The notes below the pieces were generated by a model. The model ran no database searches. It had not been told where the DNA came from and saw only the letters and a list, made by a program, of their open reading frames with translations. From a virus (lineage: Duplodnaviria > Heunggongvirae > Uroviricota > Caudoviricetes), in the IMG/VR virus record IMGVR_UViG_3300029337_000248, positions 1-19,378 of that record: a DNA stretch of 19,378 nt; one strand, written 5' to 3'. A program made the position numbers and the translations under genes. The stretch's first letter is position 1, and every line of letters starts with the position of its first letter. Positions 2,773 through 19,378 of the stretch are shown here, one piece after another.

Positions 2773-2855
2773 TTTGTTGCCTGAAATTTATACCTTTTAA
2801 AATCATGATGTTAGAAGCACTGCTTTTTAACGATGGCGACAAAATGGCGGCAGCG

Positions 2856-3074
2856 TCAAAGAGAGAGCGCCACCTGTCCTGATTTCATTGGATGCGGCTG
2901 AACCGGATTTGACTCTTTTGGCGTTGCAATCGAACGAACAAAAGTTTCATGGGTAACAAAAGTATGGCTGCAGTTAATGTTCTGGCACTGGTTGTAACGC
3001 TCTTTGGTCAATGAAGATACCTGAAAACTGCTGCGAGTATGGGCGGCACTTCCACACAGTGGGCAAATCATCAT
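2856..3074 (-). CDS. ogr: Ogr/B-family zinc-finger late-gene transcription activator
   Basis: ~72 aa product from the internal Met (MMICPLCGSAAH...ERYNQCQNINCSHTF) carrying the CPLC...CQN.NC zinc-finger pattern of P2 Ogr / 186 B; immediately downstream of D as in P2. GGGGAG lies ~10 nt upstream of the chosen ATG. Confidence 0.85.
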   Translation of the reverse strand: MMICPLCGSAAHTRSSFQVSSLTKERYNQCQNINCSHTFVTHETFVRSIATPKESNPVQPHPMKSGQVALSL

Positions 3075-3164
3075 TTTTCGAGTTCTCCCCATTTTTGCTA
3101 AATTCACAATAATGATACCGTATTATTCCATTTTGCAAACTTAAAAGTTCTCCATTGCGAAGAA

Positions 3165-4265
3165 TCATTCCATTTCGAAATCATCAATCCTCACTTCAAG
3201 CTCCAGACTGGTCGTAAAACCGTTATCCGGGCTGACGGTATGTGTCAGAGTCGTAATGGTCCATTCCGCATCATCTATCGGCTGTTTAAAACCACTGACT
3301 TTCACTGGCATTTCCGTGTAGAGATCTGCCCGACCTTCCGCCAGTTGTAGCGAGAATGACGCAACGCCGCGTTGCAGGCGTTCCCACTGCATTTTCGCCG
3401 CTCGTTCGGCGTTGCTCCGGTTGGCATAAGTGCGATTAAGTACCAGCACGTTTTCATCCGTACCCACCAGGTAATCGCCCTGCTTCGCTTCCGGCTCTTT
3501 CGTCTGCTTCTTAGTCCTGCGCTTACGCTTCACCGTGGTGCTTTCTTTCTTCGAGGGTTCGCGAGTATGCAACCAGCTGGCAATTACGCCCGTGTAAGCT
3601 CCGCGATCTGCCAGGGTAAAGCGGTGACTGTCGCCGTCCTTACGTGTGATAGTGATCACCGGTAGTGGTTTACCGCTGGCGCTTTTACCCTGTCCCTGTC
3701 GGATGAATAACAGATTGCCATTTTTCACCGACGCAATAGCACCGTACTGGCGCGCCAGCCGCATCAGAAAACTGCCGTCACTCTCATTGGTCTGGTCTAA
3801 ATGTTCCACGGTTTTATCTGACAGGTCTTTACCCAATGCCATCTTCAGTTTGTGCCGCGCAGCTATTTCCTTCACCACTTCCCCAACGGTGGTCTTGTGC
3901 CACGACTTTTCACGGCGGGTATTCAGCGTTTCACGAAAATCAGCACTTCGCGCCCGGATAGTCAGGCGGTCCGGTGCGCCAGTGTGTTCAATCTCGTCCA
4001 CCGTGAATGTCCCTTTCGGGAAAAGCGGCTGCCCCTTCCAGCCCAGCGCCAGCGTAATGACCGCACCACGGCGCGGCAGCACGATTTTTCCGTCGGCGTC
4101 GTCCAGCTCCAGATCAAGCTGGTCCGCTTCAAAGCCCCGATTGTCCGTCAGCGTCAAACTCATCAGGCGGTTATCCAGCACAGTGGTGATATCCCTGCCC
4201 TCAATACTGATGCTGAATGCGGGAGTTTTGTTGCCTTTGTTAAGCAGTTCAGAGCTGAAATTCAC
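3165..4265 (-). CDS. D: Phage late control / tail protein D (P2 gpD family)
   Basis: 366 aa ORF, the last gene of the T-U-D order, read on the minus strand; size and sequence character fit P2 gpD (recalled ~387 aa). Confidence 0.85.
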   Translation of the reverse strand: MNFSSELLNKGNKTPAFSISIEGRDITTVLDNRLMSLTLTDNRGFEADQLDLELDDADGKIVLPRRGAVITLALGWKGQPLFPKGTFTVDEIEHTGAPDRLTIRARSADFRETLNTRREKSWHKTTVGEVVKEIAARHKLKMALGKDLSDKTVEHLDQTNESDGSFLMRLARQYGAIASVKNGNLLFIRQGQGKSASGKPLPVITITRKDGDSHRFTLADRGAYTGVIASWLHTREPSKKESTTVKRKRRTKKQTKEPEAKQGDYLVGTDENVLVLNRTYANRSNAERAAKMQWERLQRGVASFSLQLAEGRADLYTEMPVKVSGFKQPIDDAEWTITTLTHTVSPDNGFTTSLELEVRIDDFEME

Positions 4266-4747
4266 GACAGCAGCCCTCCCACCGTTTTACTGATATCGCT
4301 TAAAGCAGACGTTGCCATGTCCTGCAGATTATTCAGTTGCGCACTGAGATCACCGAACATATCGGACAGGGATTCATCCACCCGTTTGAGCGACAGGGTG
4401 AACTCAATCCGGCGCGGCATACCGTCGCGGAAAAACTCCGTTTTAGTCTGATTCAGTCCCTCAATCACATACATGCCATAAATCGTGCCGCTGCCTTCAA
4501 TCAGGGGCCATGCTTTCCCCTGTTCTGCCATCTGCTCCAGCGCCAGCAGCGACAGCCTGCCACCTGTTATCTCCGGCATAAGAACACCGGAAAGCGTCAG
4601 CATGTCGTTGTCCGGTCCCAGAAACTGCGTGGACGGACGTCGGTTTACCCGGCTGTTTGCCGCATGTCGCCAGTTGCGTTGATACTGCAGCTCCTGATAC
4701 GGCACGGTGCGCAGCATAAACACGTACAATCCCAGCACCATCATCAT
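4262..4747 (-). CDS. U: Phage tail protein U (P2 gpU family)
   Basis: 161 aa ORF whose stop overlaps the D start by 4 nt (ATGA), between the T fragment and D; size matches P2 gpU (~160 aa). Confidence 0.85.
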   Translation of the reverse strand: MMMVLGLYVFMLRTVPYQELQYQRNWRHAANSRVNRRPSTQFLGPDNDMLTLSGVLMPEITGGRLSLLALEQMAEQGKAWPLIEGSGTIYGMYVIEGLNQTKTEFFRDGMPRRIEFTLSLKRVDESLSDMFGDLSAQLNNLQDMATSALSDISKTVGGLLS

Positions 4748-5448
4748 GCGTCGTATCCCCCCTGATCGCTGTAGTTACTCCTGGCTTTTGCCTTCAACCT
4801 GCGTTCACGTTCATCAAGCTGGCGGGCCACCTCCCGCGCAATATCCTGCGCACTTTGTCCTGGCTGCGTCTGGATGATGATCTGCGTCGGTGCCTCAATC
4901 CTGTAAACGGGCGGCACAGTGGCTGCGCGACTCACAATTGCTTCTCCACCTTTCGCGGGAAGTGCCAAAGGGTGCAACGGTGGAAGCTCTGCTGGTGCGG
5001 CAGCAACGCCCATCATTCCGGCAACAACGGCAGCCAGTGCAGCTGTATTTCTCCGGCTAGTCACATTTGCCGGGCCGTTAACAATTTCCGGCCCGTTTTC
5101 ACCGACGATGCCAAACTGCCCGCGCGGGATATACCCGCCGCTGTCATACATCCCCGCAAAGCCATATCCCCATGATGGAAAACCACCCGATGGCATCATC
5201 ACTTTACCGTCTGCATTCACCGTCGCAGGTTGCTGACGCGTCACGCTTTCCGGCAGTTTTGCCTTTGCGGCCTCTTTACTGACAATGCCGAGCTTCTCCA
5301 GCAACCAGGAAACGCCGGATTTCAGGGAGTCCAGCGGATGCATGACCATATTCAGCCCTTCCGCCAGTGCCTCCCCGAATCTCCGCCCCATTGCCGCTGC
5401 ACTCTGCAGTTCGGCAGAGGTCGACTTAACGGGCGTCAACCGTAACAA
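4744..5448 (-). pseudogene. T: Tail tape-measure protein T, C-terminal fragment only (5' part deleted)
   Basis: 234 aa ORF directly upstream of U in the T-U-D order; P2 gpT is ~815 aa from memory, and the reading frame runs straight into the terminase fragment on the opposite strand with no E/E' or other tail genes upstream. Confidence 0.7.
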
Positions 5449-6865
5449 AGGCCCGCGCCGTCAGCCGGAAAAGAACGTTTTCACCGATGAACAGATTGAG
5501 AAGCTGGAAGAAATCTTCCATTCCTCCATGTTCAACTACCAGCGCCACTGGTGGGAAGCCGGAAAAACCAACCGCATCCGCAACCTGCTGAAGTCACGCC
5601 AGATCGGCGCGACCTTCTATTTTGCCCGTGAAGCCCTGATTGACGCCCTGCTAACCGGGCGTAACCAGATTTTCCTTTCCGCCAGCAAGGCTCAGGCCCA
5701 CGTCTTTAAGCAGTACATCATCGACTTCGCCAAAGAAGTGGAGGTGGAGCTGAAAGGCGATCCGATGGTGCTTCCTAACGGGGCCACGCTTTACTTCCTC
5801 GGCACCAATGCCCGCACTGCCCAGAGTTATCACGGCAACCTGTATCTGGATGAATATTTCTGGATACCGAAATTCCAGGAGCTGCGCAAAGTGGCTTCCG
5901 GTATGGCTATTCACAAGAAATGGCGACAAACCTATTTTTCCACGCCATCCAGCCTGACTCATAGTGCTTATCCGTTCTGGTCCGGTGCGCTGTTCAACCG
6001 TGGGCGCAACAAAGCCGATAAGGTGGACATCGACCTGTCCCACAGCAATCTGGCCCCCGGCCAGCTGTGCGCCGACGGGCAATACCGCCAGATAGTCACC
6101 GTGGAAGATGCGGTGCGCGGCGGCTGTAACCTGTTCGACCTTGACCAGTTGCGCATGGAGTACAGCCCGGACGAATACCAGAACCTGCTGATGTGCGAGT
6201 TTGTGGACGATCTCGCGTCCGTGTTTCCGCTCAGCGAGCTGCAGGCGTGCATGGTGGACAGTTGGGAAGTCTGGACCGACTTTCATGCTCTGGCCCTGCG
6301 CCCATTTGGCTGGCGCGAAGTGTGGATCGGTTATGACCCGGCAAAAGGTACGCAGAACGGCGACAGCGCCGGATGCGTGGTGGTGGCACCGCCAGCCGTG
6401 CCAGGCGGTAAGTTTCGCATTCTCGAGCGTCACCAGTGGCGCGGGATGGACTTCCGTGCCCAGGCGGACGCAATCAAAAAACTGACCGAGCAGTACAACG
6501 TGACCTACATCGGCATCGACTCAACCGGCGTTGGTCACGGGGTTTACGAGAACGTGAAAGCGTTCTTTCCTGCCGTCCGGGAGTTTGTCTACAACCCCAA
6601 CGTTAAAAACGCCCTGGTACTCAAGGCCTACGACATTATCAGCCACCGCCGTCTGGAGTTTGACGCCGGACACACCGACATAGCGCAGTCCTTTATGGCA
6701 ATCCGTCGCTCCACCACCGCCAGTGGCAACCGCCCGACCTATGAAGCCAGCCGCAGCGAAGAAGCCAGCCACGCCGATCTGGCATGGGCAACGATGCACG
6801 CACTGTTTAACGAACCGCTGCAGGGCGAATCCGCCAATACCAGCAATATTGTGGAGATTTTTTGA
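5449..6865 (+). pseudogene. P: Terminase large (ATPase/nuclease) subunit P, N-terminally truncated
   Basis: ORF 5285-6865 translates to a terminase-like protein (C-terminal nuclease-type segment ...YIGIDSTGVGHG...) and is followed by portal Q with a 4-nt overlap. Its first ~55 codons overlap the T fragment on the other strand, so the homologous part starts near 5450-5475, well short of the ~590 aa I recall for P2 gpP. Boundary is approximate. Confidence 0.7.
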
Positions 6866-7890
6866 TGGGAAAGAGTAAGAAAAACCGCGCAGCGGCGATG
6901 AATCAGATCCAGCATAAAAGCCAGACTTCAGCCGAAGCATTCAGCTTCGGCGATCCCGTTCCTGTTCTGGACCGTCGCGAACTGCTGGACTATGTGGAAT
7001 GCGTACAGATGGACCGCTGGTATGAGCCGCCTGTGAGTTTCGACGGCCTGGCGCGAACATTCCGCGCCGCCGTACACCACAGCTCACCGATTGCAGTAAA
7101 GTGCAACATTCTGACCAGCACCTATATCCCTCACCCACTGCTCAGCCAGCAGGCTTTTTCACGTTTTGTGCAGGACTATCTGGTATTTGGTAACGCCTAC
7201 CTGGAGAAACGCACGAACCGCTTCGGTGAAGTTATCGCCCTTGAACCTGCGCTGGCAAAATACACCCGACGCGGGTTAGACCTGGATACCTACTGGTTTG
7301 TGCAATACGGCATGACTACGCAGCCGTATCAGTTCACGAAAGGCAGCATCTTTCATCTGATGGAACCGGATATCAACCAGGAGATCTACGGCCTGCCCGG
7401 TTATCTTTCTGCCATTCCGTCAGCCCTGCTCAACGAGTCCGCCACGTTGTTCCGCCGTAAGTATTACATCAACGGCAGCCATGCAGGCTTCATCATGTAC
7501 ATGACCGATGCCGCGCAGAATCAGGAGGATGTGAACAACCTCCGCAACGCGATGAAAAGCGCCAAAGGTCCAGGCAACTTCCGCAACCTGTTTATGTACT
7601 CACCTAACGGCAAAAAAGACGGGCTTCAGATCATCCCATTGTCAGAAGTCGCGGCGAAGGATGAATTTCTTAACATCAAGAACGTGAGTCGGGATGACAT
7701 GATGGCAGCGCACCGCGTGCCGCCGCAAATGATGGGGATTATGCCGAATAATGTTGGGGGGTTTGGGGATGTGGAGAAAGCAAGTAAAGTGTTTGTACGA
7801 AACGAACTTATACCATTACAAAAACGCTTAGGAGAGATAAATGAATGGCTTGATAAAAAAATAATAGAATTTGAAATATATTCATTCTGA
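6862..7890 (+). CDS. Q: Portal (capsid vertex) protein Q
   Basis: 342 aa ORF immediately downstream of P with overlapping stop/start, matching the P-then-Q order and ~344 aa size of P2 gpQ. Confidence 0.85.
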   Translation: MMGKSKKNRAAAMNQIQHKSQTSAEAFSFGDPVPVLDRRELLDYVECVQMDRWYEPPVSFDGLARTFRAAVHHSSPIAVKCNILTSTYIPHPLLSQQAFSRFVQDYLVFGNAYLEKRTNRFGEVIALEPALAKYTRRGLDLDTYWFVQYGMTTQPYQFTKGSIFHLMEPDINQEIYGLPGYLSAIPSALLNESATLFRRKYYINGSHAGFIMYMTDAAQNQEDVNNLRNAMKSAKGPGNFRNLFMYSPNGKKDGLQIIPLSEVAAKDEFLNIKNVSRDDMMAAHRVPPQMMGIMPNNVGGFGDVEKASKVFVRNELIPLQKRLGEINEWLDKKIIEFEIYSF

Positions 7891-7974: not shown

Positions 7975-8472
7975 TCACTTTAAGAATTTTTTCTGATAAG
8001 ACTCATCAATTAGAGATTTAATTATTTTCGCCCTTTTTGACACTAATACACTAATTCTTGTCCTTTGACTTTTATCATACTCCTGTGCTTTTTCAATATT
8101 AGATGTAGCATCTTTGAATAAATCAGCAATCAAAGGTTTATAGTCACCTTCGATATTAATGCGTTGTTTTAGATGATTCAACCACCGCTCGGTCTCCGCA
8201 AGAAGTGCTGTTATCTCATTTTGAAATGACATTGCATCAATTTCTTTTGAATCTCCCGGTATCCAAAACTTTCTTGATGCAGATTCAATTTCCTTTAAAT
8301 TATCTGAAACATTTTTTACAATTGCCCATGTTTCACTCCTCTTTTGCAACGCACGGGAGTTTCTATAAACAAAAACCCAACCAATCAAGGCTGTTAGAAT
8401 TGCAATCACACCTGAACTAGCAAGGTATTGTAATAACCGCAGATAAACCGGAAGTTCATCCATGAACATCAC
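7975..8472 (-). CDS. Single-pass membrane protein of unknown function (candidate effector), third gene of the cargo operon
   Basis: 165 aa ORF; one predicted transmembrane helix near the N-terminus (LLQYLASSGVIAILTALIGWVFVY), then a charged, likely helical domain; start overlaps the stop of the upstream gene by 4 nt; AT-rich codon usage. Confidence 0.75.
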   Translation of the reverse strand: MMFMDELPVYLRLLQYLASSGVIAILTALIGWVFVYRNSRALQKRSETWAIVKNVSDNLKEIESASRKFWIPGDSKEIDAMSFQNEITALLAETERWLNHLKQRINIEGDYKPLIADLFKDATSNIEKAQEYDKSQRTRISVLVSKRAKIIKSLIDESYQKKFLK

Positions 8473-8789
8473 TCCTTTTTAGCATCAGAAATATATCCCC
8501 ATATACTATCCTTGAGGAAATCCAAATCAGTAAATATTTTTAATTTTTTCCTAATTATAGCTTTATCTATATTATTTGTTCTATAAAGTCCACCAAACGC
8601 CTCTTCCAAGAATGAAGAACCATAACCCATAGCACCATCAAGGTACACGTGCACCTCATCATAATCTTGGATGGCTTTCAAAAGATACTTTTCACGGAAA
8701 CGTTGTCCATTATCAGGACCATCCTCATCATAGCGGCCATAGGGAACATCTGAAAAATCTTCAGCAACATGTATCTCTTTGATTTTCAT
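8469..8789 (-). CDS. Small acidic protein, candidate STAS-like (anti-sigma-antagonist-like / DUF4325-like) partner, second gene of the cargo operon
   Basis: 106 aa ORF translationally coupled (4-nt overlaps) to both neighbours. Size and a ...LDGAMGYGSSFLEEAF... segment with adjacent serines resemble the phosphorylatable region of STAS/SpoIIAA-like proteins. The family call is by eye and tentative. Confidence 0.7.
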   Translation of the reverse strand: MKIKEIHVAEDFSDVPYGRYDEDGPDNGQRFREKYLLKAIQDYDEVHVYLDGAMGYGSSFLEEAFGGLYRTNNIDKAIIRKKLKIFTDLDFLKDSIWGYISDAKKE

Positions 8790-9853
8790 TCAGCACCTCT
8801 CAAACTTACATTCCATTGAATAAGGGTTCCACCTATGGAGTATGGCAGATCAAATTTATCTTCAACATTATTTTCAGCATCATAAGAATATCGTCCCATT
8901 CCACTAAAAATATGTAACTGCCCCTCAGGGTTATCTACAACATACCTTTTCATATCAGGTAATCCTTTACCATGCTTCTGACTATTCATTCTTGTCTCAC
9001 CATACTGTACAGCCGCGAATATTTTATCAGAATCCGTCTTAGGATTAAATATCTGAGCGATAAATGTGAAAAAGTCTTTTTTAACCAATGTAACTGGGAT
9101 ACCTTCTCCCATATCATACACCATCAAAAATAGTTGTTCTTCGACTTTGTGTGCCAATATCCACCATCTTTTACCAATGTCCTCAATAAATTCAGAGAAC
9201 TGTTCTTCATTTGAATACGCATGTAGACCAACATTGCTAATAGATTCAGTTAAGGCTGCATATAATTTCACACCATCCGAAGCGGAAATCTTACCTTCAT
9301 AAATGGTATCTTTTATATAACGTAGAATATTTTTAATTTTTTGTCTTGCTTCGGCACTTTCATGATCATCTCTAGTTTTGCCTGCAACAGCGGAAACAAT
9401 TTCCATTGAATTAAGCTTATCTGCAGCTATACGCTGAAACCCTGTAATCCCCCAAATACCACATATTTTAAACCAGTTATTTGCCCTGGATGAACCGCAC
9501 GTAGTAATAGAAATTATATTTTTATCTTTTGTTTGCCTTTGTAAAAAGTCAATATGTGCATACAATACGATTACTGCACATGCTTTCAGAGATTTTGTAT
9601 TTCTGAAATCTATTAAAATTTTCTCACCATCATTGATGTAATCTCTGATTAAAGTGATAAACTCTATAAATAGTTTGTAATTTTTAGTATTAAATAAGTC
9701 CAATGACGCAGGCGCGGGTATTCTCACACGAGAGAATACCCGCATGGGCTGTAGCATCCGTCTTCCACCAGAAAGCTTTCTTGACTCCCGCTTCGCAATC
9801 TTCCTTGCTCTGATCAAAGAATGTTCAATTTGTTCTTCAGTTAGCCGCTTCAT
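8786..9853 (-). CDS. GHKL-type (histidine-kinase-like / anti-sigma-kinase-like) ATPase with an unassigned ~190 aa N-terminal domain, first gene of the cargo operon
   Basis: C-terminal half carries Bergerat-fold motifs in order: N-box TESISNVGLHAY (E-x3-N-x3-H-[GA]-Y as in SpoIIAB/RsbW), G1 box YDMGEGIP (DxGxG), G2 box HGKGLPD, G3 GGTLIQW. Start placed at the internal Met (MKRLTEEQ...) because GAGGAAAGG precedes it; the longer ORF reaches 9898. Confidence 0.75.
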   Translation of the reverse strand: MKRLTEEQIEHSLIRARKIAKRESRKLSGGRRMLQPMRVFSRVRIPAPASLDLFNTKNYKLFIEFITLIRDYINDGEKILIDFRNTKSLKACAVIVLYAHIDFLQRQTKDKNIISITTCGSSRANNWFKICGIWGITGFQRIAADKLNSMEIVSAVAGKTRDDHESAEARQKIKNILRYIKDTIYEGKISASDGVKLYAALTESISNVGLHAYSNEEQFSEFIEDIGKRWWILAHKVEEQLFLMVYDMGEGIPVTLVKKDFFTFIAQIFNPKTDSDKIFAAVQYGETRMNSQKHGKGLPDMKRYVVDNPEGQLHIFSGMGRYSYDAENNVEDKFDLPYSIGGTLIQWNVSLRGAE

Positions 9854-10000
9854 ATCCTTTCCTCGATAGTTGTTGAAGCTTATCAGTTCACGCAACAACT
9901 ACAAACATCTACCTGCTATCTTAAAGCAACAATTTGAAAGAACATTGAAAATCATAGTATCTGTTTGTAAACAAACGACTGTTTCTATACCTTGCGCGCG

Positions 10001-10019
10001 CTCGTATCCCCGCCACGCC
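10001..10019 (-). other. cos-like cohesive-end site
   Basis: Minus-strand reading GGCGTGGCGGGGATACGAG; the first 12 nt match the cohesive-end sequence I recall for 186 (GGCGTGGCGGGGAAAGCAT) and P2 (GGCGAGGCGGGGAAAGCAC). Located in the A-to-Q interval where cos is expected. Confidence 0.6.
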
Positions 10020-10050
10020 TGCCCGCTTTATGTAGTAGTTTTCATGCACC

Positions 10051-10151
10051 TGCATGACATGAGCAAAAGCCCGCCAGTTCTGGCATGTCTTAGCCAAACC
10101 GATCCTCAAACGATCATGCGAACCCATGCAGCATAGACATGCATGACATGA
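10051..10151. repeat. Direct repeats of TGCATGACATGA (10051-10062 and 10140-10151) flanking cos, within a CATG-rich cluster
   Basis: Two exact 12-bp copies 89 bp apart, read directly from the sequence; TGGCATGTC also occurs twice (10081-10089 and 10252-10260). Confidence 0.7.
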
Positions 10152-11348: not shown

Positions 11349-11456
11349 TCAAAATTAAAGCTACTTCAGCATAGTCCCTGAGAATATATATCAGGGACTA
11401 CCAAATCACGGCAGATACCCCTTAGTTAAATAATGCTAAACGCTTAGAAAGAGACC

Positions 11457-11823: not shown

Positions 11824-12010
11824 TCAACTGATTACATCCATCGACCTACTGTATTCATGGCTTCGAATTTTCGCCATCAACTCATCAGTCAATTCAGAAA
11901 CCCACTGCAGAGCTAGCCCCTTCTCTTCATCACTACACTCACTAGCCGCTACAAGCTTAAGAAAAAAATCAATGCGCTGGAGCTTCAAAGACTCCAAAAA
12001 ATAGTCCTGC
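11824..12010 (-). CDS. Small hypothetical protein (62 aa) downstream of replication gene A
   Basis: Strong RBS (AGGAGGAAAG) directly before ATG (MQDYFLESLK...); the track ORF extends to 12114 but lacks an RBS at its first Met. Sits where P2 carries orf91/tin/old. Confidence 0.6.
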
Positions 12011-12165
12011 ATCTTTCCTCCTATAACACCATACGCAATACTGTACATATAACCACTGTTTATATTTACAGTATATAATAATCTTACTGATGTAAAACGT
12101 TTTTTTACGTTCATCAGCCTGATATGCCTGGTATTATTAAGAGCACGAATTGTTAACCCGCGTGA

Positions 12166-14580
12166 TTAATACAGGTTCCGCCACTTATCATCTTCCTGCA
12201 AACGCTGGTTCCGATAGAAGATACGCAGGCCTGCTCCTGACGGAATACTGCCACCGCAAAGGAGCAAATCGACCTCTTTCTCGCTGCCATCAAATCCTCT
12301 GGACTTCAGTTCATAGACGAGCTGCTGACGCTGATACTCTGTAATTCGCTGTTTGTAGTCTTTACGCCGTTTCGGTTTAACCAGGCGCAATCTTGCTGCC
12401 AGTTCCCGGCGCTCTTTTTTGCTCATACTGTGCAGGTAATCGTGCAATTCCTTGTCATCCATGCAGGTAATGTCCGTTCTGGTATCCCCATCTGCTGATT
12501 CATCTTTCTCATGTTGGTTCAAATTTTCAGCAAGGGGACAGTTATTGCCACGAGTCCAAGGGGCGCAAGCGCCCTGGTCGGCTGCCGCCTCCTGAACGTC
12601 AACGGCTTTACGAACCATTTTCCACTTCACTGCATGAGTGCAGATCTTGCCCTCTGCAATGGGTGACCAGATGCCATAAATACGAATGCCGTGATCGCCA
12701 TAGGCGGTCGGCTCTTCGTTGATTTCATAAGCGGTTCTGATGAGGTGATATTTACGGGGAACCAGTACGCCGCCCTGTTTCATGATGTAGGTGGCAAAAC
12801 AACCAGCATCAGCAGCAGCCAGAATGGCATCAAGACGCGGGTTATCCAGTACCGGCGCACCTGCTTTTTTGTCACCCTGTTGCCTTGCCGCCTGACCAGC
12901 CAGCAAGCGAAGTTCACGGTAAGCCTGACGCCCCGGAATACCAAAGAAGCGGAATTGCTGAACACGATGCAGAGACGCCCAGGCATTCACGTATTCAGCG
13001 TTATCACGCAGAGATTTACCCGTTTCCTTGCTGATCTCGCCAACCAGACCACGACCGTCAATGTTCTTACTGATATATTTCGCGATGTAGCTTGTCGGCG
13101 TTCCTTTGCGCGGGTTAATCAACTCAGACTTAAAGCGCGGCCCAGTGTTATTGCCCAGCTCCTCGCGGTCTTCACGGATGGCAAACTTACGCAGTAATGC
13201 AGTGATGGCACGGCGGTCTTTTTTGCGCATGAAACACAACAGGTGCCAGTGAACTGTGCCATCATGATGCGGCTCAGCCACCCGCACGCCATACCAGCGC
13301 AACCCGGCTTTGTGCATCGCCTTACGAAATGCAGCAAACATGCCGACCAGATAATCGCTGCTTTGTCTTACCGTCGCGTTTGTCCAGGTCGGGTTTGGTC
13401 TGCCGTTATTTAGCGTGGAATGGAAACGCGACGGACAGGTGATAGTGTAGAAAACGGCGCAGTCACCGCGCATTTCCGCGATAAGCTCCAGACCTTTAAC
13501 ACAGGCCATCATCTCATTGCGGCGATGCGCAGGGTTGCTGCTGCTGGCGTTTACCACATCCTCCATGTCCAGCGTGTCGCCGTCTTCGTTCACCAGTTCA
13601 TGAGAACGGAAAAACTCCAGCGACTTACGGCGCTGCTCACGTTTATGCATCACGGCTTCATAGCTGACATAAGGAGATGCTTTTTTGCTGACCAGGCAAA
13701 CAGCGCGCAACTGCTCTTCCCGCCATTCGCAACGCATCTTCCATAATTTCCGATACCACCAGTCGGCGCACAACATACGCGCCAGCGAACCCGGAATGAG
13801 TTCATAGGGCACGGGTTTGCGGCGGTTTCTTTTCCGACGGAGTTGCTCAAACGCAGGTGGGATGACATCCAGACGCAGGGTTTCCGCTGCCACCTTTTCC
13901 CATGTCTTGCGGATTTCTTCTGGCTTAACGTCATCGGTGGCATACAAATCACCACAAGCTGCATCAAGGCACATACTCATATGCGCAGCTACCAGGGTGG
14001 ACAGGCGTTTCACCTGATCCTGACTCATTTCAGGCAGGATCAGCAGGCCGTCCAGCCCTTCATGGCTTGCCATAAAGCGAAAAGATGCAGATAGCTGACT
14101 GTCGCGTACATGCTCCAGTCGTTCCAGACATGGCTTAATCGTCTCACGTAAATAGCGGGAATAAGCCTTTGGCCTGCCCAGGCTGCTGAAGTATTCAATA
14201 CGTTGCATCAGCGGCTTGCTGATATGGGAAGGCTGGGCGTTGACGTCCGCCAGAATGACCATGTCTGAATTAAAACGCTGCTGCTCATGCGCCAGCTTTG
14301 CCCGGCTAATGAGCTTATCCTGCTCCATTTCGCGCTGGACAGGATCACGTGATTCATTAAAGAAATAACGCTCCCAGACCTGATCACTCAGTGCCTCGCG
14401 GCGCAACTGTTCCTGCTCGTTATCGGCAGCGTACAGAGTGATCAGGTTTGAAAGCGTAGAAACCGGCGCAACTTCCGCCGGGTCCAGATAAGGGTTAATG
14501 GCCTTTTTCGGGCTGTTCCATGAGAATGCTGCGGCAGCCTCGTTAAAGCCGCAGCAGTTGTTCATATCGGCATGACTCAT
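12166..14580 (-). CDS. A: Replication initiation protein A (rolling-circle replication endonuclease, P2 gpA / 186 A family)
   Basis: 804 aa ORF containing the rolling-circle active-site tyrosine motif ([16 protein letters not shown]); position at the end of the early operon matches P2/186. Confidence 0.9.
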
Positions 14581-15434
14581 GCACGTACTCCGTACACGGC
14601 AGAACTATCCACGCCACGCGAATAATCAAATCCCATCCAGCAGCGCGGCCCGGAAACAGCAATGATTTCTGTTGCTGATTTACCCTCGCCAGCTGCCACA
14701 CCGATGCTGCGTTTTACCTTGATATAGTGGTGAGTAAAATTGCGATACAGCGAACGGATCAGGGATGTGTCACTGTTAGAAACAATGACCGGATGTCCTT
14801 CTGATGACCGATGTTCAAGAACGGATGCCAGGTGATACTGGTCATCTTCAGTGAAACCATCAGTGTGATAACCGGAAAACGTACCGTCATATGGCGGATC
14901 GCAATACACCACATCTCCCGCCTTCAACATCGTCAGCGTTTCATCAAAGCTGGCGCAGATAAACGTTGCTCGCTGGGCTTTTTCTGCAAATGTGCGAAGT
15001 TCTTTTTCAGGGAAATACGGATTTTTATAATTACCGTAGGGAATGTTGAAATGCCCGCTCTTGTTATAGCGACATAAACCACGGTAACCGTGACGATTGA
15101 GATACAGGAAATATACCGCTTTCATGAAATCAGTAATTTCAGTTGAGCAGTTAAACTCCTGCCTTATGTTGTAATAAGCCACCTCCCTGTTTGCGATCTC
15201 AAATAAAACTCTGGCGCGAGATATAAACGATTCACAATCAGCGGCAACCTTTTTATAGAGGTTGATTAAATCAGGATTAATATCCGCAACCAGATAGCTG
15301 GGATAATCCGTTTCCATCATCACAGCACAGGAACCCGCGAAAGGTTCAACCAGTCGCGGGCCAGCAGGAAGGTATTTTTTCAGTTCTGGCATAATGGCGG
15401 TTTTATTTCCCGCCCATTTCAGGATGGTGCTCAT
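14577..15434 (-). CDS. DNA adenine methyltransferase (Dam-like, N6-adenine class)
   Basis: Motif I region ILKWAGNK...FAGSCAV and catalytic DPPY ([10 protein letters not shown]). Start set at the internal Met (MSTILKW...) preceded by GGAGGTG; stop overlaps the A start (ATGA). Confidence 0.85.
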
Positions 15435-15658
15435 ACAGCACCTCCGTTGTAATGTTTGCCTTTCAGTTCTGCGATTTCCTGACAGGTAATGCAAAGCTGC
15501 ACTCCCGGAATGGCGCGGCGTCGTGCTGGCGGAATTGGCGCTTCACATTCAATGCAAAGTACGCGTGACACGCCCGGTGATTTGGCACGGGCTGCACGGA
15601 TATGGCGCTGGCGTTCTTCTTCAACGCGCTGCTGTACGAGATCCATTGCATCAGCCAT
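15431..15658 (-). CDS. TraR/DksA-family C4 zinc-finger protein
   Basis: 75 aa with CxxC...CxxC (CIECEAPI...CITCQE); a small protein of this type is typical of the P2/186 early region; stop overlaps the Dam start. Confidence 0.75.
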   Translation of the reverse strand: MADAMDLVQQRVEEERQRHIRAARAKSPGVSRVLCIECEAPIPPARRRAIPGVQLCITCQEIAELKGKHYNGGAV

Positions 15659-15897
15659 TAGTGGATCTCCTGCGCTTCGTTCTGGATTGCTTCAGCAGTC
15701 ACGCGCAGCAGTTCTGCCGCTTCCACGTGGTTTAGCTGGCGGGATGAGATATAACACGCCAGGCTATCAAGGCGAGCAGCCATTGCTTCAGCCCTTGCCC
15801 GGCGTTCTTCCAGACGAGCCTCTGTCAGTAAAATATTAAGCCCTGCGTCATCCGGTCCGGTTTTAGTCATGAGGGTTTCAATATTACGCATAATCAA
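15658..15897 (-). CDS. Hypothetical phage early protein (79 aa)
   Basis: ORF in operon register with its neighbours in the early (minus-strand) operon; no recognisable motif. Confidence 0.55.
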   Translation of the reverse strand: MIMRNIETLMTKTGPDDAGLNILLTEARLEERRARAEAMAARLDSLACYISSRQLNHVEAAELLRVTAEAIQNEAQEIH

Positions 15898-15958
15898 TTC
15901 TCCTGAATTTAGATAAAGGGATGCCCGGCGGGTTTACGCCATTAATTTCATTAGTTGG

Positions 15959-16300
15959 TTAATTCGGCATGGTTAGCCGTCTGGGAAATAAGCTCACCAC
16001 TGCACGAAAATGATTCATTGCTTTAATCAACTCCCGCTTTTCGTCAGTGGTCAGCTCATTAATGCTGATGCTATGACGTTCAGCTGGAATTTTTGCCATA
16101 AAGAATATGGCAGCCAGTGCCCTTTTATTTTGTTCATTATTGATATCCCATGGATCACGCATATCTTTAATAAACCGCTCAAGCTCTGACTCAATATTCA
16201 GGCCAAAAACTTTCGCCCTTAACTCCGCAATGTGATTAAGTCCATTCAGGCGTTCACCGGGGCTTAATGGAACAGTTGCTGCAGTGCCTTCAATAGCCAT
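15959..16300 (-). CDS. Hypothetical phage early protein (113 aa)
   Basis: ORF with GGGGGA RBS ~6 nt upstream of ATG; lies where 186 carries early genes such as fil/dhr, but no specific assignment is possible by eye. Confidence 0.6.
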   Translation of the reverse strand: MAIEGTAATVPLSPGERLNGLNHIAELRAKVFGLNIESELERFIKDMRDPWDINNEQNKRALAAIFFMAKIPAERHSISINELTTDEKRELIKAMNHFRAVVSLFPRRLTMPN

Positions 16301-16464
16301 TTGTTCCCCCGTTTTTTCGTAGATAGTTCTGCCAGCAATTCATCTTGTGAACGGCACGGATGCCAGCGTTTACCATCCTCCCCCATGATCCAGCCGTGAC
16401 CGTAATGCATTGCCGGGCTTTGTTTAACCAGCAGCGATGCAAATGATGGTTCTTTCGTCAGCAT
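16264..16464 (-). CDS. Hypothetical phage early protein (~66 aa)
   Basis: Start placed at the internal Met (MLTKEPSF...) preceded by GAGGTG, which avoids overlap with the cII stop; the track ORF extends to 16494. Confidence 0.5.
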   Translation of the reverse strand: MLTKEPSFASLLVKQSPAMHYGHGWIMGEDGKRWHPCRSQDELLAELSTKKRGNKWLLKALQQLFH

Positions 16465-16471: not shown

Positions 16472-16981
16472 TCACAGCAAACCAAATGAAGCACCGAGGC
16501 CAGTCACGGTATCAACTGCACTCGCCATCGCAGGATTAGCCTGTAAACGGGCCTGCAATGAAACAGCCGCCAGCGCCATCAGTCGTGTTACAGAGTTAAT
16601 GCTGCTGATAGCATCACGACGACCGGCACAGGTTTTTACATCGCCAGACACCGCACCTGCAGCAACACGCCCGATCTCTGCGGTTGCACTCATGACGTAA
16701 TGTGGCAGTTTCTCTTTTGCCACCTCATTAATCGGTACACATGGCAGACAATGAATCTGTGCCAGAAAACCATCTACCAGCGTTGAATCTTCAGTCAGAT
16801 CGGTAAGCAGCCAGATTTCTGGTGCGGTTAATAAATGAGGCTGAGCTGGGTTCAGCTTGTTCCGCAGAATCTGCACATTCATGCCTGCACGTTCTGCCAG
16901 TTGCACCAGATTGTGGCGCAGTGCAAATGCACGACAGGCTTCATCAAAATGTGGATGTTTGGAAACTTGGTAATCAAACAT
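16472..16981 (-). CDS. cII: CII-like lysogeny establishment activator (186 CII family)
   Basis: 169 aa from the Met at 16981 ([19 protein letters not shown]...); length and sequence closely match 186 CII as I recall it; AGAGG RBS 7 nt upstream. Confidence 0.85.
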
Positions 16982-17013
16982 GGTCAATGCCTCTGATGTA
17001 TTTCAGAATCGAA

Positions 17014-17235
17014 CTAATTAAGGTTTAGATTGCATTCTGAAAGCGCATCAACGGTCATTGCTGCTATGTTGATCATCACTTTTTCGCGTTTTTTATCTTT
17101 GCGCAGACGGTGACGGATAAGGCGTCCATCAGCCAACATATCATTGATGGTATCGATGGATAGCCCTGTCAGCTCGCTATAGCGTTCAATAGTCACATGA
17201 GGCGTGGTAAGAGTGATTGAAATGTTAGGTCTCAT
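17014..17235 (-). CDS. apl: Apl/Cox-like excisionase and transcriptional regulator
   Basis: 73 aa HTH-containing protein, first gene of the minus-strand early operon and divergent from cI, as apl in 186; GAGGAA RBS upstream. Confidence 0.75.
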
Positions 17236-17307
17236 GATGCAACATTCCTCGTTTAATGATGATTAATCAGGACGAATACGGATCGTTTGTATTTTGTGAA
17301 CACCATA

Positions 17308-17336
17308 AACATACGATCGCACAGTGAAATCGTCAA
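17308..17336 (-). promoter_or_regulatory. Candidate early lytic promoter (pR-like) for apl-cII
   Basis: Minus-strand TTGACG - 17 nt - TATGTT in the cI/apl intergenic region, oriented toward apl. Confidence 0.4.
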
Positions 17337-17354
17337 GATAAAAGTTCACTTGGA

Positions 17355-17930
17355 GTGACCATGAATTTGGAGAAAGGCGGACGAGGCGCCATAGAGCGCA
17401 TGGTAGAAGCTTATGGATTCAAGACTCGACAGGCGTTGTGCGATCATTTAGGAATCTCTAAAAGTACACTCGCCACACGCTACATGCGTGACTCATTCCC
17501 AGCAGAATGGGTAATCCAGTGCGCCCTTGAAACAGGCACCTCGCTTAATTGGCTCACAACCGGGCATGGTTCAAAGCAAACTTCAGGTAATACAAATACT
17601 ATGGAAGTTGCTAAATATGTATTATCTGATGGGGCCTTGTGTGAAGACGGTTTTTATATTTTCGATAGAGAATTTCTACCGTCGGCATTCAAGAATCTTT
17701 TTGTAATCACAGATAATAATTCTGAATTTATTTGTGATAAGGAATTTGATGATATACGTGATGGTAAATGGGTAATAAGTATTGATGGCGAAATAACGAT
17801 CCGTGACATTACTCGTTTACCCGGTGGAAGAATCTTCGTCGAGGGTGGAAACAGAGCCTTCGAATGTAAGATAGAAGACATTGAAATAATTGGTAAAATT
17901 ATAAGTTTAACAGTCAAGTATGTTAAATAG
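17355..17930 (+). CDS. cI: CI-like immunity repressor (186 CI family)
   Basis: 191 aa (186 CI is ~192 aa) with an N-terminal HTH region (QALCDHLGISKSTLATRYMR); divergent from apl and upstream of int; GGAG RBS. Confidence 0.85.
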   Translation: MTMNLEKGGRGAIERMVEAYGFKTRQALCDHLGISKSTLATRYMRDSFPAEWVIQCALETGTSLNWLTTGHGSKQTSGNTNTMEVAKYVLSDGALCEDGFYIFDREFLPSAFKNLFVITDNNSEFICDKEFDDIRDGKWVISIDGEITIRDITRLPGGRIFVEGGNRAFECKIEDIEIIGKIISLTVKYVK

Positions 17931-17945
17931 TACCGGGAGGAAATT

Positions 17946-18137
17946 ATGCTTGGTAAGGTATTTTTTGTGGTTTTGTCATGTTCTTTGTTATTAAACCCAC
18001 TAGCTACCTATGCTAGAAATTATCCCTGCTCAGGGAAAAAGGGAGGTGTTTCTCACTGTACCTCTGATGGCAAATTCGTTTGCAATGATGGAACTATTAG
18101 TAAATCCAAAAAAATCTGTACTAAAAACTCACGATAA
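17946..18137 (+). CDS. Small secreted cysteine-rich protein (63 aa precursor) between cI and int
   Basis: Strong RBS (GGGAGG, 7 nt spacing); N-terminal signal peptide ([23 protein letters not shown]) and a ~40 aa mature part with 4 Cys. Confidence 0.7.
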
Positions 18138-18325
18138 CTTTTGCTTTTATATCTGCGCCTAAAATAAAAATGAGCCACAGGTTAACCGCAAAAGTTACAT
18201 GATCACATAGCAAAAAGAATAGCCTACTTCATTATGGCTTCAGTGAGATGTATGGTCGCAGGATTTCATACATTGACACTGGTTATACATACAGTAAAAA
18301 TGCTCTCTATTGGAGGGCATTTTTT

Positions 18326-19378
18326 ATGGCTGTACGAAAACTCACCACAGGAAAATGGCTTTGCGAATGTTACCCCGCCGGACGTAGTGGGCGTCGTGTG
18401 CGTAAACAATTCGCCACCAAAGGCGAAGCACTGGCTTTTGAGCGTCACACGATGGAAGAAACCGAAGCAAAGCCCTGGCTAGGTGAATCAGTGGATCGTC
18501 GAACACTGAAAGACGTGGTTGAGCTATGGTTCAAACTACATGGTAAATCACTGACTGCTGGGCAGCATGTCTATGACAAATTGCTGCTGATGGTTGACGC
18601 TCTGGGCAATCCCCTTGCAACTGATCTCACCTCTAAAATGTTTGCCCACTATCGAGATAAACGCCTGACAGGTGAGATCTACTTCAGCGAGAAATGGAAG
18701 AAAGGAGCAAGCCCGGTCACCATTAACCTGGAGCAAAGCTATCTAAGTAGTGTTTTTAGCGAACTATCCCGCCTGGGCGAATGGTCGTATCCGAACCCAC
18801 TGGAGAACATGCGAAAATTCACCATCGCAGAAAAAGAGATGGCATGGCTTACCCATGAGCAGATTGTTGAATTACTGGCTGATTGCAAACGTCAGGACCC
18901 AATTCTGGCACTGGTAGTTAAGATATGCTTAAGCACAGGCGCACGCTGGCGAGAAGCCGTAAATCTTACTCGTTCACAGGTGACCAAATACCGAATTACC
19001 TTTGTAAGAACGAAGGGGAAGAAAAACAGAAGCATCCCTATCAGTAAAGAGCTTTACGAAGAGATCATGGCGCTTGATGGGTTCAATTTCTTCACAGACT
19101 GCTATTTTCAATTTTTATCCGTGATGGAAAAAACGTCTATCGTGCTCCCTCGCGGTCAACTCACACACGTTCTGCGCCATACGTTTGCGGCGCACTTCAT
19201 GATGTCGGGTGGAAACATTCTGGCCTTACAAAAAATTCTCGGACACCACGATATAAAAATGACTATGCGTTACGCACATCTGGCACCGGATCATCTGGAA
19301 ACGGCGCTCCGTTTCAATCCTCTGGCAACGCTGCCAAGTGGCGACAAAGTGGCGGCAGCGGTTGGCATTACCCCGTAA
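18326..19378 (+). CDS. int: Tyrosine integrase (P2/186 Int family)
   Basis: 350 aa from the Met at 18326 (MAVRKLTTGKW...), preceded by GGAGG; catalytic signature residues in order (...GARWREA..., ...HVLRHTFAAH..., ...MRYAHL...); located at the prophage end next to cI. Confidence 0.9.
   Translation: MAVRKLTTGKWLCECYPAGRSGRRVRKQFATKGEALAFERHTMEETEAKPWLGESVDRRTLKDVVELWFKLHGKSLTAGQHVYDKLLLMVDALGNPLATDLTSKMFAHYRDKRLTGEIYFSEKWKKGASPVTINLEQSYLSSVFSELSRLGEWSYPNPLENMRKFTIAEKEMAWLTHEQIVELLADCKRQDPILALVVKICLSTGARWREAVNLTRSQVTKYRITFVRTKGKKNRSIPISKELYEEIMALDGFNFFTDCYFQFLSVMEKTSIVLPRGQLTHVLRHTFAAHFMMSGGNILALQKILGHHDIKMTMRYAHLAPDHLETALRFNPLATLPSGDKVAAAVGITP

What the first reader, a model, noticed from the sequence alone, without database searches (positions are those of the whole stretch)
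2773..19378. Cryptic prophage that keeps cos, replication, immunity and integration: domesticated defence island or helper-dependent satellite-like element
Despite losing all structural genes the element retains an apparently intact integrase, CI/Apl/CII switch, replication initiator A, Ogr-like activator, portal and a cos-like site, plus cargo on both sides of cos. Retention of cos with replication and excision functions means a co-resident P2-like helper could in principle package it. Alternatively the host is maintaining it for its cargo.
Basis: inference. Interest (0 to 1): 0.5.

Follow-up and report, generated by a model that had tools for sequence, protein, structure and literature searches.

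The report
Recently deleted P2-like prophage remnant
This is an ordinary E. coli P2/186-type prophage, sitting in the rybB small-RNA gene, that lost its tail, head and lysis genes in one 17.8-kb deletion but still has intact control, replication, integration and packaging-site parts; nothing shows it has become a satellite or a host-kept defence island.

Summary
From the att core at 2765 to the int stop at 19378, the window holds a Fels-2/186-like P2-family prophage between ybjL/rybB and rcdA. Compared with an intact prophage at the same site (strain HH194M), it differs by a single 17.8-kb deletion with a microhomology junction at about 5427-5438. The deletion runs from inside tape-measure gene T to codon ~104 of terminase gene P. 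All 22 other genes are full length, including int, CI, Apl/Cox, CII, A, ogr, D, U and portal Q. A P2-type cos lies at 10001-10019 (- strand), with cargo on both sides.

The two functional readings are not supported by population data. This junction is absent from 5,426 complete E. coli genomes, IMG/VR and JGI metagenomes. About 20% of E. coli carry a P2-like prophage at this site, and at least 12 different internal deletions exist. The commonest deleted form looks clonally inherited. The cargo is 99.9% identical to cargo in intact prophages and matches no known defence model.

Helper packaging is mechanistically possible but unshown. Defective P2 prophages carrying hotspot cargo have already been described.

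The parts
2700..2778 (+). rybB sRNA gene. Its 3' terminator end is the bacterial attachment site.
   Evidence: Rfam RF00110, 105 bits, model positions 1-79 of 79.
2765..2778 (.). att core ATGGGTTTTTTGTT on the ogr side, with imperfect homology extending to about 2790. The second core lies about 75 bp past the window end.
   Evidence: The core is duplicated at both prophage ends in relatives. The reconstructed empty attB is contiguous in 4,295 genomes.
2834..2855 (+). 22-nt direct repeat TGGCGACAAARTGGCGGCAGCG. The second copy is at 19339-19360, inside the int 3' end. The two copies flank attP in the circular form, so they are candidate Int arm sites (inferred).
   Evidence: the repeat finder family D2. 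Both copies are also present in phage KP12 attP.
2856..3074 (-). ogr, the Ogr/Delta zinc-finger late activator (72 aa).
   Evidence: Pfam Ogr_Delta, E = 6.7e-22. 100% aa identity to the HH194M copy.
3165..4265 (-). Tail gene D, intact (366 aa).
   Evidence: Pfam Phage_GPD. 98% identity over full length.
4262..4747 (-). Tail gene U, intact (161 aa).
   Evidence: Pfam Phage_P2_GpU. Full length.
4744..5438 (-). T', the C-terminal 231 aa of the 1025-aa tape measure protein.
   Evidence: tblastn matches residues 795-1025 only.
5427..5438 (.). Deletion junction with short microhomology. Joins intact-prophage positions 6890 and ~24739, removing 17.8 kb.
   Evidence: BLAST against intact locus L005 and junction sequences.
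5439..6865 (+). P', terminase large subunit lacking about 103 N-terminal residues and its late promoter. An in-frame chimeric ORF runs 5285-6865.
   Evidence: tblastn matches residues 104-588. Terminase_6N and Terminase_6C profiles are complete.
6865..7890 (+). Portal gene Q, intact (341 aa).
   Evidence: Pfam Phage_portal. 99% identity over full length.
7975..9853 (-). Cargo A, a low-GC (35%) three-gene operon between Q and cos. It encodes a GHKL ATPase/kinase-like protein (8786-9853), a DUF4325 STAS-like protein (8469-8789) and a membrane-type protein (7975-8463).
   Evidence: Pfam, invariant GHKL motifs, AF2 model and fold matches to SpoIIAB, CheA-P4 and GyrB, PADLOC none, GC content.
9992..10143 (-). 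cos region. The predicted 19-nt cohesive end GGCGTGGCGGGGATACGAG is at 10001-10019.
   Evidence: Aligned with the annotated cos of P2 and 186. Conserved in 91 phage records.
10542..11756 (+). Cargo B between cos and A: a DUF6694 lipoprotein (10542-11348) and a 99-aa lipoprotein-like ORF (11457-11756).
   Evidence: Pfam DUF6694, PHROGs of unknown function, 99.6-100% identity to HH194M.
11824..12071 (-). 62-aa ORF (11824-12012) homologous to the N-terminal part of the 186 Tum antirepressor, preceded by a LexA box at 12056-12071. The DinI-like second half found in relatives is absent.
   Evidence: LexA pattern, sequence, local alignment score 57 against a shuffle mean of 21 ± 3.9 with 0 of 2000 shuffles reaching it, 186 annotation.
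12166..14580 (-). Replication initiator A (804 aa), intact.
   Evidence: Pfam Phage_GPA, E = 5.8e-128. 98.8% identity over full length.
14577..16464 (-). Early-operon accessory genes: Dam methylase, TraR/DksA zinc finger, DUF2732, DUF5347 and Fil.
   Evidence: Pfam and PHROGs. All full length.
16472..17930 (.). Lysis-lysogeny switch: CII (16472-16981, -), Apl/Cox (17014-17235, -), divergent promoter region (17236-17360) and CI (17361-17930, +).
   Evidence: Pfam Phage_CP76, Phage_CI_repr and Phage_CI_C, PHROG 575 Cox-like excisionase/repressor, 186 CII 69% aa identity.
17946..18137 (+). YdcA-like small ORF between CI and int.
   Evidence: NCBIfam NF007463.
18326..19378 (+). Tyrosine integrase (350 aa), intact.
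   Evidence: Pfam Int_N and Phage_integrase. 99.7% aa identity to HH194M and 98.3% nt identity to phage KP12.

Best explanation
The element is a P2-family (Fels-2/186-like) temperate prophage integrated at the 3' end of rybB, between ybjL and rcdA, in E. coli. One illegitimate, microhomology-mediated recombination event removed 17.8 kb, from within tape-measure gene T to codon ~104 of terminase gene P.

The deletion took out all capsid, lysis, baseplate, tail-fibre and sheath/tube genes, together with the late promoters that would drive the surviving D, U, P' and Q. The element therefore cannot make particles or lyse the cell.

What still looks functional:
- CI immunity, which would give exclusion of homoimmune phages.
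- The Apl/CII switch.
- A LexA-controlled Tum-like gene.
- Int plus Apl for excision.
- A (the origin lies inside the A gene in P2 and 186) for replication.
- cos.
- Two cargo cassettes in the known cos-proximal variable hotspot.

It is best read as a young decay product, one of many independent ones at this site, and not as an element shaped for a satellite or host-service role.

Shown here: the anatomy, the single deletion, the intactness of the remaining genes, and the population frequencies. Inferred: that expression is lost for D, U, P' and Q; SOS inducibility; and that the deletion is recent.
For: - The window is colinear with the intact HH194M prophage except for one gap. The junction shows microhomology.
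- All 22 non-junction genes are full length and gap-free, with the expected families.
- cos aligns with the annotated P2 and 186 cos.
- The reconstructed empty site is found in 4,295 of 5,426 genomes and the ybjL-att-ogr junction in 1,105.
- At least 12 distinct deletion junctions occur at the same locus, in 15 or more size classes.
- The exact junction is absent from all 5,426 genomes.
- The element is a mosaic with 99.4-100% identity to different prophages segment by segment, including intact ones. This argues that little time has passed since it shared sequence with complete phages.
- Defective P2 prophages carrying hotspot genes near-identical to those of intact phages have been described (bioRxiv 10.64898/2026.02.27.708500).
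Against: - The second att site and the rest of the genome are outside the window, so excision competence and the presence of a helper cannot be checked.
- Intactness of every retained gene is also what purifying selection (domestication) would give. Divergence is too low to tell the two apart.
- The same T-side endpoint occurs in strain FCI51, which has different cargo and immunity. This could mean the deleted form is older and has kept exchanging modules.
Confidence: 0.8

Rival explanations
1. Helper-dependent, satellite-like mobilisable element. After SOS induction or infection by a heteroimmune Fels-2/186-like helper, Int plus Apl excise a 16.7-kb circle and A replicates it. The helper's terminase then cuts its cos and packages it, most plausibly as a dimer (33.4 kb), into helper capsids. 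It re-integrates at rybB in a new host.
For: - Int, Apl, A, cos, ogr and a LexA-boxed Tum-like gene are all intact.
- cos is 99.8-100% identical to that of an intact relative.
- cos-bearing plasmids are packaged by the P2 machinery (PMC2231350).
- Core-to-core length is 16,688 bp, 0.483 of the intact 34,540 bp, so a dimer would be 97% of a genome.
- The attB is empty in 79% of E. coli genomes.
Against: - There is no gene for capsid resizing or helper derepression or interference. The content is only a subset of a normal prophage.
- The junction is unique among 5,426 genomes and absent from IMG/VR and JGI metagenomes.
- The only common sister deletion compared is clonal.
- Sister elements range from about 15 to 26 kb with no clustering at half-genome size.
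- Most carriers show no second matching P2-like prophage.
- From my own knowledge, not checked here: P2 A protein acts mainly in cis and stays repressed by the element's own CI under a heteroimmune helper. A monomer of about 48% genome length would underfill a P2 head.
Confidence: 0.12
2. Domesticated defence or immunity island. The host keeps the remnant because CI immunity and the two cargo cassettes protect against other phages, while loss of the lysis and structural genes removes the cost of induction.
For: - The cargo sits exactly in the cos-proximal P2 hotspot known to hold anti-phage systems (PMC9122126).
- Sister elements carry recognised defence genes in the same slots: retron St85, AIPR, KAP NTPase, TIGR02391 and an HsdR-like gene.
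- All regulatory genes are intact.
- Deletions at this locus repeatedly remove the same tail, lysis and head block.
- The 1223-type remnant is kept in 27 genomes.
Against: - The window's cargo matches no PADLOC or NCBIfam model, and no literature was found.
- Identical cargo occurs in intact prophages.
- This deleted form is not conserved in any other genome.
- The apparent retention of both prophage ends is partly an ascertainment effect, because hits were ranked by how much of the window they cover. Stronger decay also exists: strain E3 keeps only about 6 kb.
Confidence: 0.25
3. Assembly artefact: the T'-P' junction was created by a misjoin of reads from an intact prophage.
For: The junction lies in a short imperfect repeat shared by T and P (CGACTTAA...CGTC).
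Against: - An independently assembled complete genome (FCI51) has the same T endpoint and a P endpoint 30 bp away.
- At least 11 other deletions of the same kind occur in finished genomes.
Confidence: 0.02

Closest known systems
Intact P2-family prophages at the rybB/ybjL-rcdA site (E. coli HH194M and NCTC11121); related Klebsiella phages KP12 and 4LV2017; genus Felsduovirus / phage 186
   Same: - Same gene order, att core and cos.
- Same 186-style CI / Apl / CII / Fil / A early region.
- Same Ogr, D, U, P and Q genes.
- 94-100% nucleotide identity segment by segment.
- Identical cargo A in both HH194M and NCTC11121, and identical cargo B in HH194M.
   Different: - It lacks 17.8 kb carrying O, N, M, L, the lysis genes, baseplate, fibres, sheath, tube, E and most of T, plus the first ~103 codons of P.
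- It lacks the DinI-like half of the Tum locus that many relatives have. HH194M lacks it too.
Other internally deleted P2-like prophages at the same locus (E. coli 1223, FCI51, FDN-11, NCTC9041, GF31, D2, EC50, DETEC-P169, VE-V11-M, CPE35, H6); defective P2 elements described in bioRxiv 10.64898/2026.02.27.708500
   Same: - Same site.
- The same block (tail, lysis, head) is removed.
- The same retained ends, cos and early region.
- Hotspot cargo is present.
- The preprint already reports defective P2 prophages with defence genes near-identical to those of intact phages.
   Different: - This junction (6890 | ~24739 in HH194M locus L005 coordinates) is unique.
- The cargo is an uncharacterised GHKL-STAS-membrane operon plus lipoproteins, not a recognised defence system.
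Satellite phage P4
   Same: It shares a P2-type cos next to a variable cargo hotspot, a tyrosine integrase and an Ogr/Delta-type zinc-finger activator, and it cannot make its own capsid.
   Different: - It has no alpha primase-helicase; it carries P2-type A instead.
- It has no Sid, Psu or epsilon, and no P4-type immunity.
- At 16.7 kb it is larger than P4 (11.6 kb).
- It is a straight deletion derivative of a helper-type phage, not a separate lineage.

Membership tests
P2/186-like temperate phage (Peduoviridae, Felsduovirus-like) prophage | Ogr/Delta zinc-finger late activator next to att | tested here: met
   Pfam Ogr_Delta, E = 6.7e-22. 100% identity to the intact relative.
P2/186-like temperate phage (Peduoviridae, Felsduovirus-like) prophage | GpA rolling-circle replication initiator | tested here: met
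   Pfam Phage_GPA, E = 5.8e-128, PHROG 91, full length.
P2/186-like temperate phage (Peduoviridae, Felsduovirus-like) prophage | 186-type switch: CI divergent from the Apl/Cox-CII-Fil early operon, with int downstream of CI | tested here: met
   The order matches the 186 annotation.
P2/186-like temperate phage (Peduoviridae, Felsduovirus-like) prophage | P2-type cos with a 19-nt cohesive end between portal gene Q and gene A | tested here: met
   Alignment to the annotated P2 and 186 cos. Conserved island in 91 phage records. Cleavage itself was not tested.
P2/186-like temperate phage (Peduoviridae, Felsduovirus-like) prophage | Tyrosine integrase with duplicated att core at both prophage ends | tested here: inconclusive
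   The integrase is intact and the att core on the ogr side is present (2765-2778). The second core lies about 75 bp beyond the window and is seen only in relatives. The empty attB is confirmed in 4,295 genomes.
P2/186-like temperate phage (Peduoviridae, Felsduovirus-like) prophage | Complete capsid, lysis and tail gene set (an autonomous phage) | tested here: not met
   A 17.8-kb deletion against the intact prophage.
P4-like satellite | Alpha primase-helicase replication protein | tested here: not met
   The replication gene is P2-type GpA.
P4-like satellite | Helper-manipulation genes (Sid/Psu capsid resizing, Delta, epsilon) | tested here: not met
   Every ORF is accounted for by colinearity with an ordinary P2-like prophage. 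Only Ogr is of the Delta family.
P4-like satellite | P2-type cos plus integrase | tested here: met
P4-like satellite | Evidence of helper-dependent horizontal spread (same element in unrelated hosts or in virions) | tested here: not met
   The junction is absent from 5,426 genomes, IMG/VR and JGI metagenomes. The sister 1223 type is clonal, and its single IMG/VR hit has an ID in isolate-genome format.
P2 cos-proximal anti-phage hotspot (Rousset et al. 2022) | Variable gene cassettes between gpQ and gpA, adjacent to cos, in otherwise colinear phages | tested here: met
   Different cargo appears at the same position in every relative examined. The locus is described in PMC9122126.
P2 cos-proximal anti-phage hotspot (Rousset et al. 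2022) | Cargo is a recognised defence system | tested here: not met
   PADLOC gave 0 hits, NCBIfam none, PHROGs only 'unknown function' families, and no literature was found.
P2 cos-proximal anti-phage hotspot (Rousset et al. 2022) | Demonstrated anti-phage activity | not testable with these tools
   Needs cloning and a phage challenge.
Domesticated defective prophage (vertically kept, under purifying selection) | The same defective form conserved across a host lineage | tested here: not met
   0 of 5,426 genomes carry this junction. For comparison, the sister 1223 type is kept in 27 genomes.
Domesticated defective prophage (vertically kept, under purifying selection) | Purifying selection on the retained genes after inactivation | tested here: inconclusive
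   All retained genes are intact. Segments are 99.4-100% identical to other prophages, so there is too little post-deletion divergence to measure.

The most novel reading that the evidence does not exclude
The many half-genome 'mini-P2' remnants at rybB, this one included, are nascent satellites. In this reading they stay SOS- or helper-inducible, excise and replicate, and are packaged through their intact cos as dimers (2 x 16.7 kb = 97% of a genome). They keep swapping cargo and immunity modules with passing phages. The strikingly coincident deletion endpoints would then reflect a directed, recurrent deletion process rather than random decay.
Probability: 0.08. Interest if true: 0.6.

Novelty: new member of a known kind. 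Interest (0 to 1): 0.22.

Why it matters
As it stands, this is a textbook example of prophage decay in a very common E. coli integration site: about 20% of complete genomes are occupied.

It has modest value as a clean case. A single deletion left every control, replication, integration and packaging-site function intact. That makes it a convenient natural substrate for asking whether defective P2 prophages can still be mobilised by helpers. It also bears on whether such remnants keep exchanging hotspot cargo, a question left open in the 2026 preprint on P2/P4 defence hotspots.

The uncharacterised GHKL-STAS-membrane operon in the hotspot is a reasonable candidate for a new anti-phage system.

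Tried and rejected
- **cos consensus search.** The P2/186 cos consensus with up to 3 mismatches found nothing. cos was then located through the 150-bp island conserved with other phages and by alignment to the annotated P2 and 186 ends.
- **Cargo identification.** PADLOC and NCBIfam gave no hits on any cargo protein. Literature searches for DUF4325, STAS-like and anti-phage terms gave nothing relevant.
- **tRNA integration site.** There is no tRNA or tmRNA in the window. The site is the rybB sRNA.
- **Window derived from the common 1223-type remnant by a second deletion.** Rejected: the 1223-type T endpoint lies 16 bp further into T than the window's, at intact-prophage position 6906 against 6890. 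The window is instead explained by one deletion from an intact prophage.
- **Shared deletion endpoints explained by common descent (nested deletions).** Not supported: alleles next to the junctions differ within 5-200 bp.
- **Shared ancestry of the window and FCI51 junctions, based on 575 bp of identical P'.** Weakened: the same P allele occurs at 100% identity in four genomes where the terminase gene is annotated full length, one of which (NCTC11121) I confirmed as an intact prophage.
- **The 18.3-kb 'Klebsiella phage ST437-OXA245phi4.2' as a possible packaged mini-element.** It is only a truncated prophage record.
- **Junction k-mers in IMG/VR and JGI metagenomes.** None for the window or FCI51 types. 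One UViG for the 1223 type, whose ID has the format of an isolate-genome taxon, so it is probably a predicted prophage rather than a virome contig.
- **Half-genome size as a packaging signal.** Rejected: sister elements span about 15-26 kb.

Full report
**What is in the window**

Bases 1-2620 are E. coli grxA, ybjM and ybjL. YbjL is 100% identical at protein level to the copy in strain HH194M. At 2700-2778 Rfam finds a complete rybB sRNA gene at 105 bits.

From 2765 to the window end the sequence is a P2-family prophage. Its order and orientation are:
- ogr, D, U and a T fragment on the - strand;
- a terminase P fragment and portal Q on the + strand;
- a three-gene cargo operon, a non-coding island, and two further cargo genes;
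- the 186-style early region on the - strand: a 62-aa ORF, A, Dam, a TraR/DksA-like gene, DUF2732, DUF5347, Fil, CII and Apl/Cox;
- CI, a YdcA-like ORF and int on the + strand.

The closest phage records are Klebsiella, Escherichia and Salmonella P2-like phages of the Fels-2 type. 186 CII is 69% identical at protein level.

**Boundaries**

The phage attP (KP12) and both prophage ends in relatives share the core ATGGGTTTTTTGTT. In the window the core is at 2765-2778, which is the terminator end of rybB.

I joined the window's left flank to the right flank of a relative to reconstruct the empty site. That sequence is contiguous, at up to 100% identity, in 4,295 of 5,426 complete E. coli genomes. 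The ybjL-att-ogr junction is present in 1,105 genomes.

The window stops at the int stop codon. In relatives the second core follows 75 bp later.

**The deletion**

Against the intact prophage at the same site in strain HH194M (locus L005), the window aligns as two blocks: 1-5438 to 1453-6890, and 5427/5434-19378 to 24733/24739-38682. This is one deletion of about 17.8 kb with a few bases of microhomology at the junction.

It removes O, N, M, L, X, the holin, lysozyme and spanin genes, R, S, the baseplate, tail-fibre and invertase genes, sheath, tube, E/E' and 77% of T. It also removes the first ~103 codons of P and the O-P intergenic late-promoter region.

What remains of the structural genes:
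- T' is the C-terminal 231 aa of T.
- P' is residues 104-588 and still contains complete Terminase_6N and Terminase_6C profiles.
- An in-frame chimeric ORF runs 5285-6865.
- D, U and Q are full length.

The statement that all structural genes are lost is therefore not exact. By inference from P2 operon structure, however, D, U, P' and Q have lost the late promoters that drive them.

**Integrity of the rest**

Each of the other 22 genes gives a full-length, gap-free tblastn match to the HH194M protein at 92-100% identity. Examples are int (350 aa, 99.7%), A (804 aa, 98.8%), Apl (100%), CII (99.4%) and CI (95.2%).

**cos**

A consensus search failed. The only non-coding block conserved with other phages between Q and A (9992-10143) does align with the annotated cos of P2 and 186. 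On the - strand the window reads ...CATAAAGCGGGCA|GGCGTGGCGGGGATACGAGCGCGCGC. In 186 the corresponding sequence is ...CATAAAGTGGGCA|GGCGTGGCGGGGAAAGCATTGCGCGC. The predicted cohesive end is 10001-10019.

- **Cargo A (7975-9853, 35% GC)** encodes three proteins. The first is a GHKL-fold protein with invariant N-box, DxGxG and G2 motifs. Its AF2 model (pLDDT 79.5) best matches SpoIIAB, CheA-P4 and GyrB ATPase domains. The second is a DUF4325 STAS-like protein and the third a membrane-type protein.
- **Cargo B (10542-11756)** encodes a DUF6694 lipoprotein and a 99-aa lipoprotein-like ORF.

None of these proteins hits PADLOC or NCBIfam, and their PHROG families have unknown function. The position is the cos-proximal hotspot of P2-like phages known to hold anti-phage systems (PMC9122126).

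**Inducibility**

A perfect LexA box (CTGT-N8-ACAG, 12056-12071) precedes the 62-aa ORF downstream of A, in the position of the 186 p95-tum unit. The ORF is significantly similar to residues 6-41 of 186 Tum: local alignment score 57 against 21 ± 3.9 for shuffles, with 0 of 2000 shuffles reaching it.

The DinI-like part, which is a separate gene in many relatives, is missing here and in HH194M. SOS-triggered derepression is therefore plausible but inferred.

**Population picture**

- No complete genome has the window's junction. It is also absent from IMG/VR and JGI metagenome contigs.
- Strain FCI51 has the same T endpoint and a P endpoint 30 bp away, but different cargo and a different immunity region.
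- Twenty-seven genomes share another junction (1223 type, T' joined to O').
- Mapping 12 remnants on the intact reference gives 12 different junctions. The left ends fall in D, T or E and the right ends in L, O, the O-P spacer or P.
- The whole-window search shows at least 15 size classes.
- In an evenly spaced sample of the ranking, 5 of about 14 occupied loci were deleted forms, including one reduced to about 6 kb.
- Two 1223-type strains from different continents differ by 2 SNPs and one indel over 48 kb, including 30 kb of flanks. That form is clonally inherited.
- The window itself is a mosaic. The flank and cargo are 100% HH194M-like. ogr-T' and the immunity/int region are 99.4-100% FDN-11- or NCTC9041-like. 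P' is identical to that of the intact NCTC11121 prophage.
- Six genomes carry the full cargo at 99.8-99.9% identity. The one I examined, HH194M, holds it in an intact prophage.

**Interpretation**

The simplest account is recent in-situ decay of an ordinary prophage at a heavily used site, within a pool of prophages that recombine freely.

The satellite idea is mechanistically possible: cos, Int/Apl and A are intact, cos-bearing plasmids are packaged by the P2 machinery (PMC2231350), and a dimer would be 97% of a genome. But the element has no dedicated satellite genes and there is no trace of spread.

The domestication idea fits the hotspot location and the repeated loss of the same lethal block. 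Against it, the cargo is unrecognised, it is shared with intact phages, and this form is not conserved. Part of the apparent retention pattern also comes from how hits were ranked.

Defective P2 prophages with hotspot genes near-identical to those of intact phages have already been reported. Whether they are domesticated or still swapping modules was left open there (bioRxiv 10.64898/2026.02.27.708500).

**Unexplained**

Deletion endpoints coincide in pairs although their partner endpoints and neighbouring alleles differ:
- 24184/24185 (1223 and EC50);
- 24348 (GF31 and CPE35);
- 24713-24716 (FCI51 and DETEC-P169);
- 6890 (window and FCI51).

With 12 junctions spread over about 3.5 kb, this is far more coincidence than uniform chance would give. 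Hotspots of illegitimate recombination are the likeliest reason, but I could not identify the cause.

**Verdict**

The anatomy is confirmed with corrections. The functional readings are unproven and not favoured. The element is a new member of a known kind, and of low to moderate interest.

Noticed in passing
window 2700-2778: The prophage attachment site is the 3' end of the rybB sRNA gene (RF00110, 105 bits, full length), and integration leaves rybB intact. About 20% of complete E. coli genomes (1,105 of 5,426) have a P2-like prophage or remnant here, and 4,295 have the empty site.
   Followed up: yes
window 7975-9853 (- strand): A low-GC three-gene operon in the Q-cos slot encodes a GHKL ATPase/kinase-like protein, a DUF4325 STAS-like protein and a membrane protein. 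The GHKL protein has all motifs invariant across 20 homologues, a SpoIIAB/CheA-P4-like fold, and possibly an N-terminal STAS-like domain. The operon resembles a partner-switching module, matches no PADLOC or NCBIfam model, and has homologues mainly in Enterobacterales (Klebsiella, Pectobacterium, Pantoea, Serratia and others). It is a candidate new anti-phage system.
   Followed up: partly
window 10542-11756; compare L012 33862-34886: The two cargo slots on either side of cos vary independently. NCTC11121 has the same Q-side operon, plus an IS1, but a different A-side cassette that includes a DinI-like gene. In the window and HH194M the A-side cassette is two lipoprotein genes and the DinI-like gene is absent.
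   Followed up: partly
L005 coordinates 6890, 24184/5, 24348, 24713-24716 (window junction 5427-5438): Deletion endpoints in different strains coincide to within 0-3 nt, although the partner endpoints and adjacent alleles differ. This suggests recombination hotspots in T, O, the O-P spacer and P. The cause was not identified.
   Followed up: partly
L002 about 9626-9640 (O-P intergenic region; deleted in the window): A 13-mer, AGGCGGGGAAAGC, identical to the core of the P2 cohesive end sits in the divergent late-promoter region of relatives, about 14 nt from the shared 24348 deletion endpoint.
   Followed up: no
window 5285-6865 (+ strand): The deletion created an in-frame chimeric ORF of 526 aa. 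It has 47 novel N-terminal residues read from the antisense of T', followed by terminase residues ~104-588 with both terminase domains complete. FCI51's junction differs by exactly 30 bp, so the same frame is kept there. Whether the ORF is expressed, or interferes with a helper terminase, is unknown.
   Followed up: no
L002 21740-22134 (also GF31, L014 20719-21093): In the 1223 and GF31 remnants the last ~20 bp of int are replaced, and a ~350-bp insert carrying a 270-bp ORF (WP_001032044.1) separates int from a retained copy of the original 44-bp int 3' end.
   Followed up: no
window 11824-12071: In this phage group the 186 Tum antirepressor appears split into a 62-aa N-terminal-like gene and a separate DinI-like gene. 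Only the first, together with its LexA box, is present in the window.
   Followed up: partly
L021 vs L022: E. coli 1223 (dog, Scotland) and W5-6 (river water, Chengdu) differ by 2 SNPs and one indel over 48 kb around this locus. The lineage carrying the 1223-type remnant is therefore globally spread and very young.
   Followed up: partly
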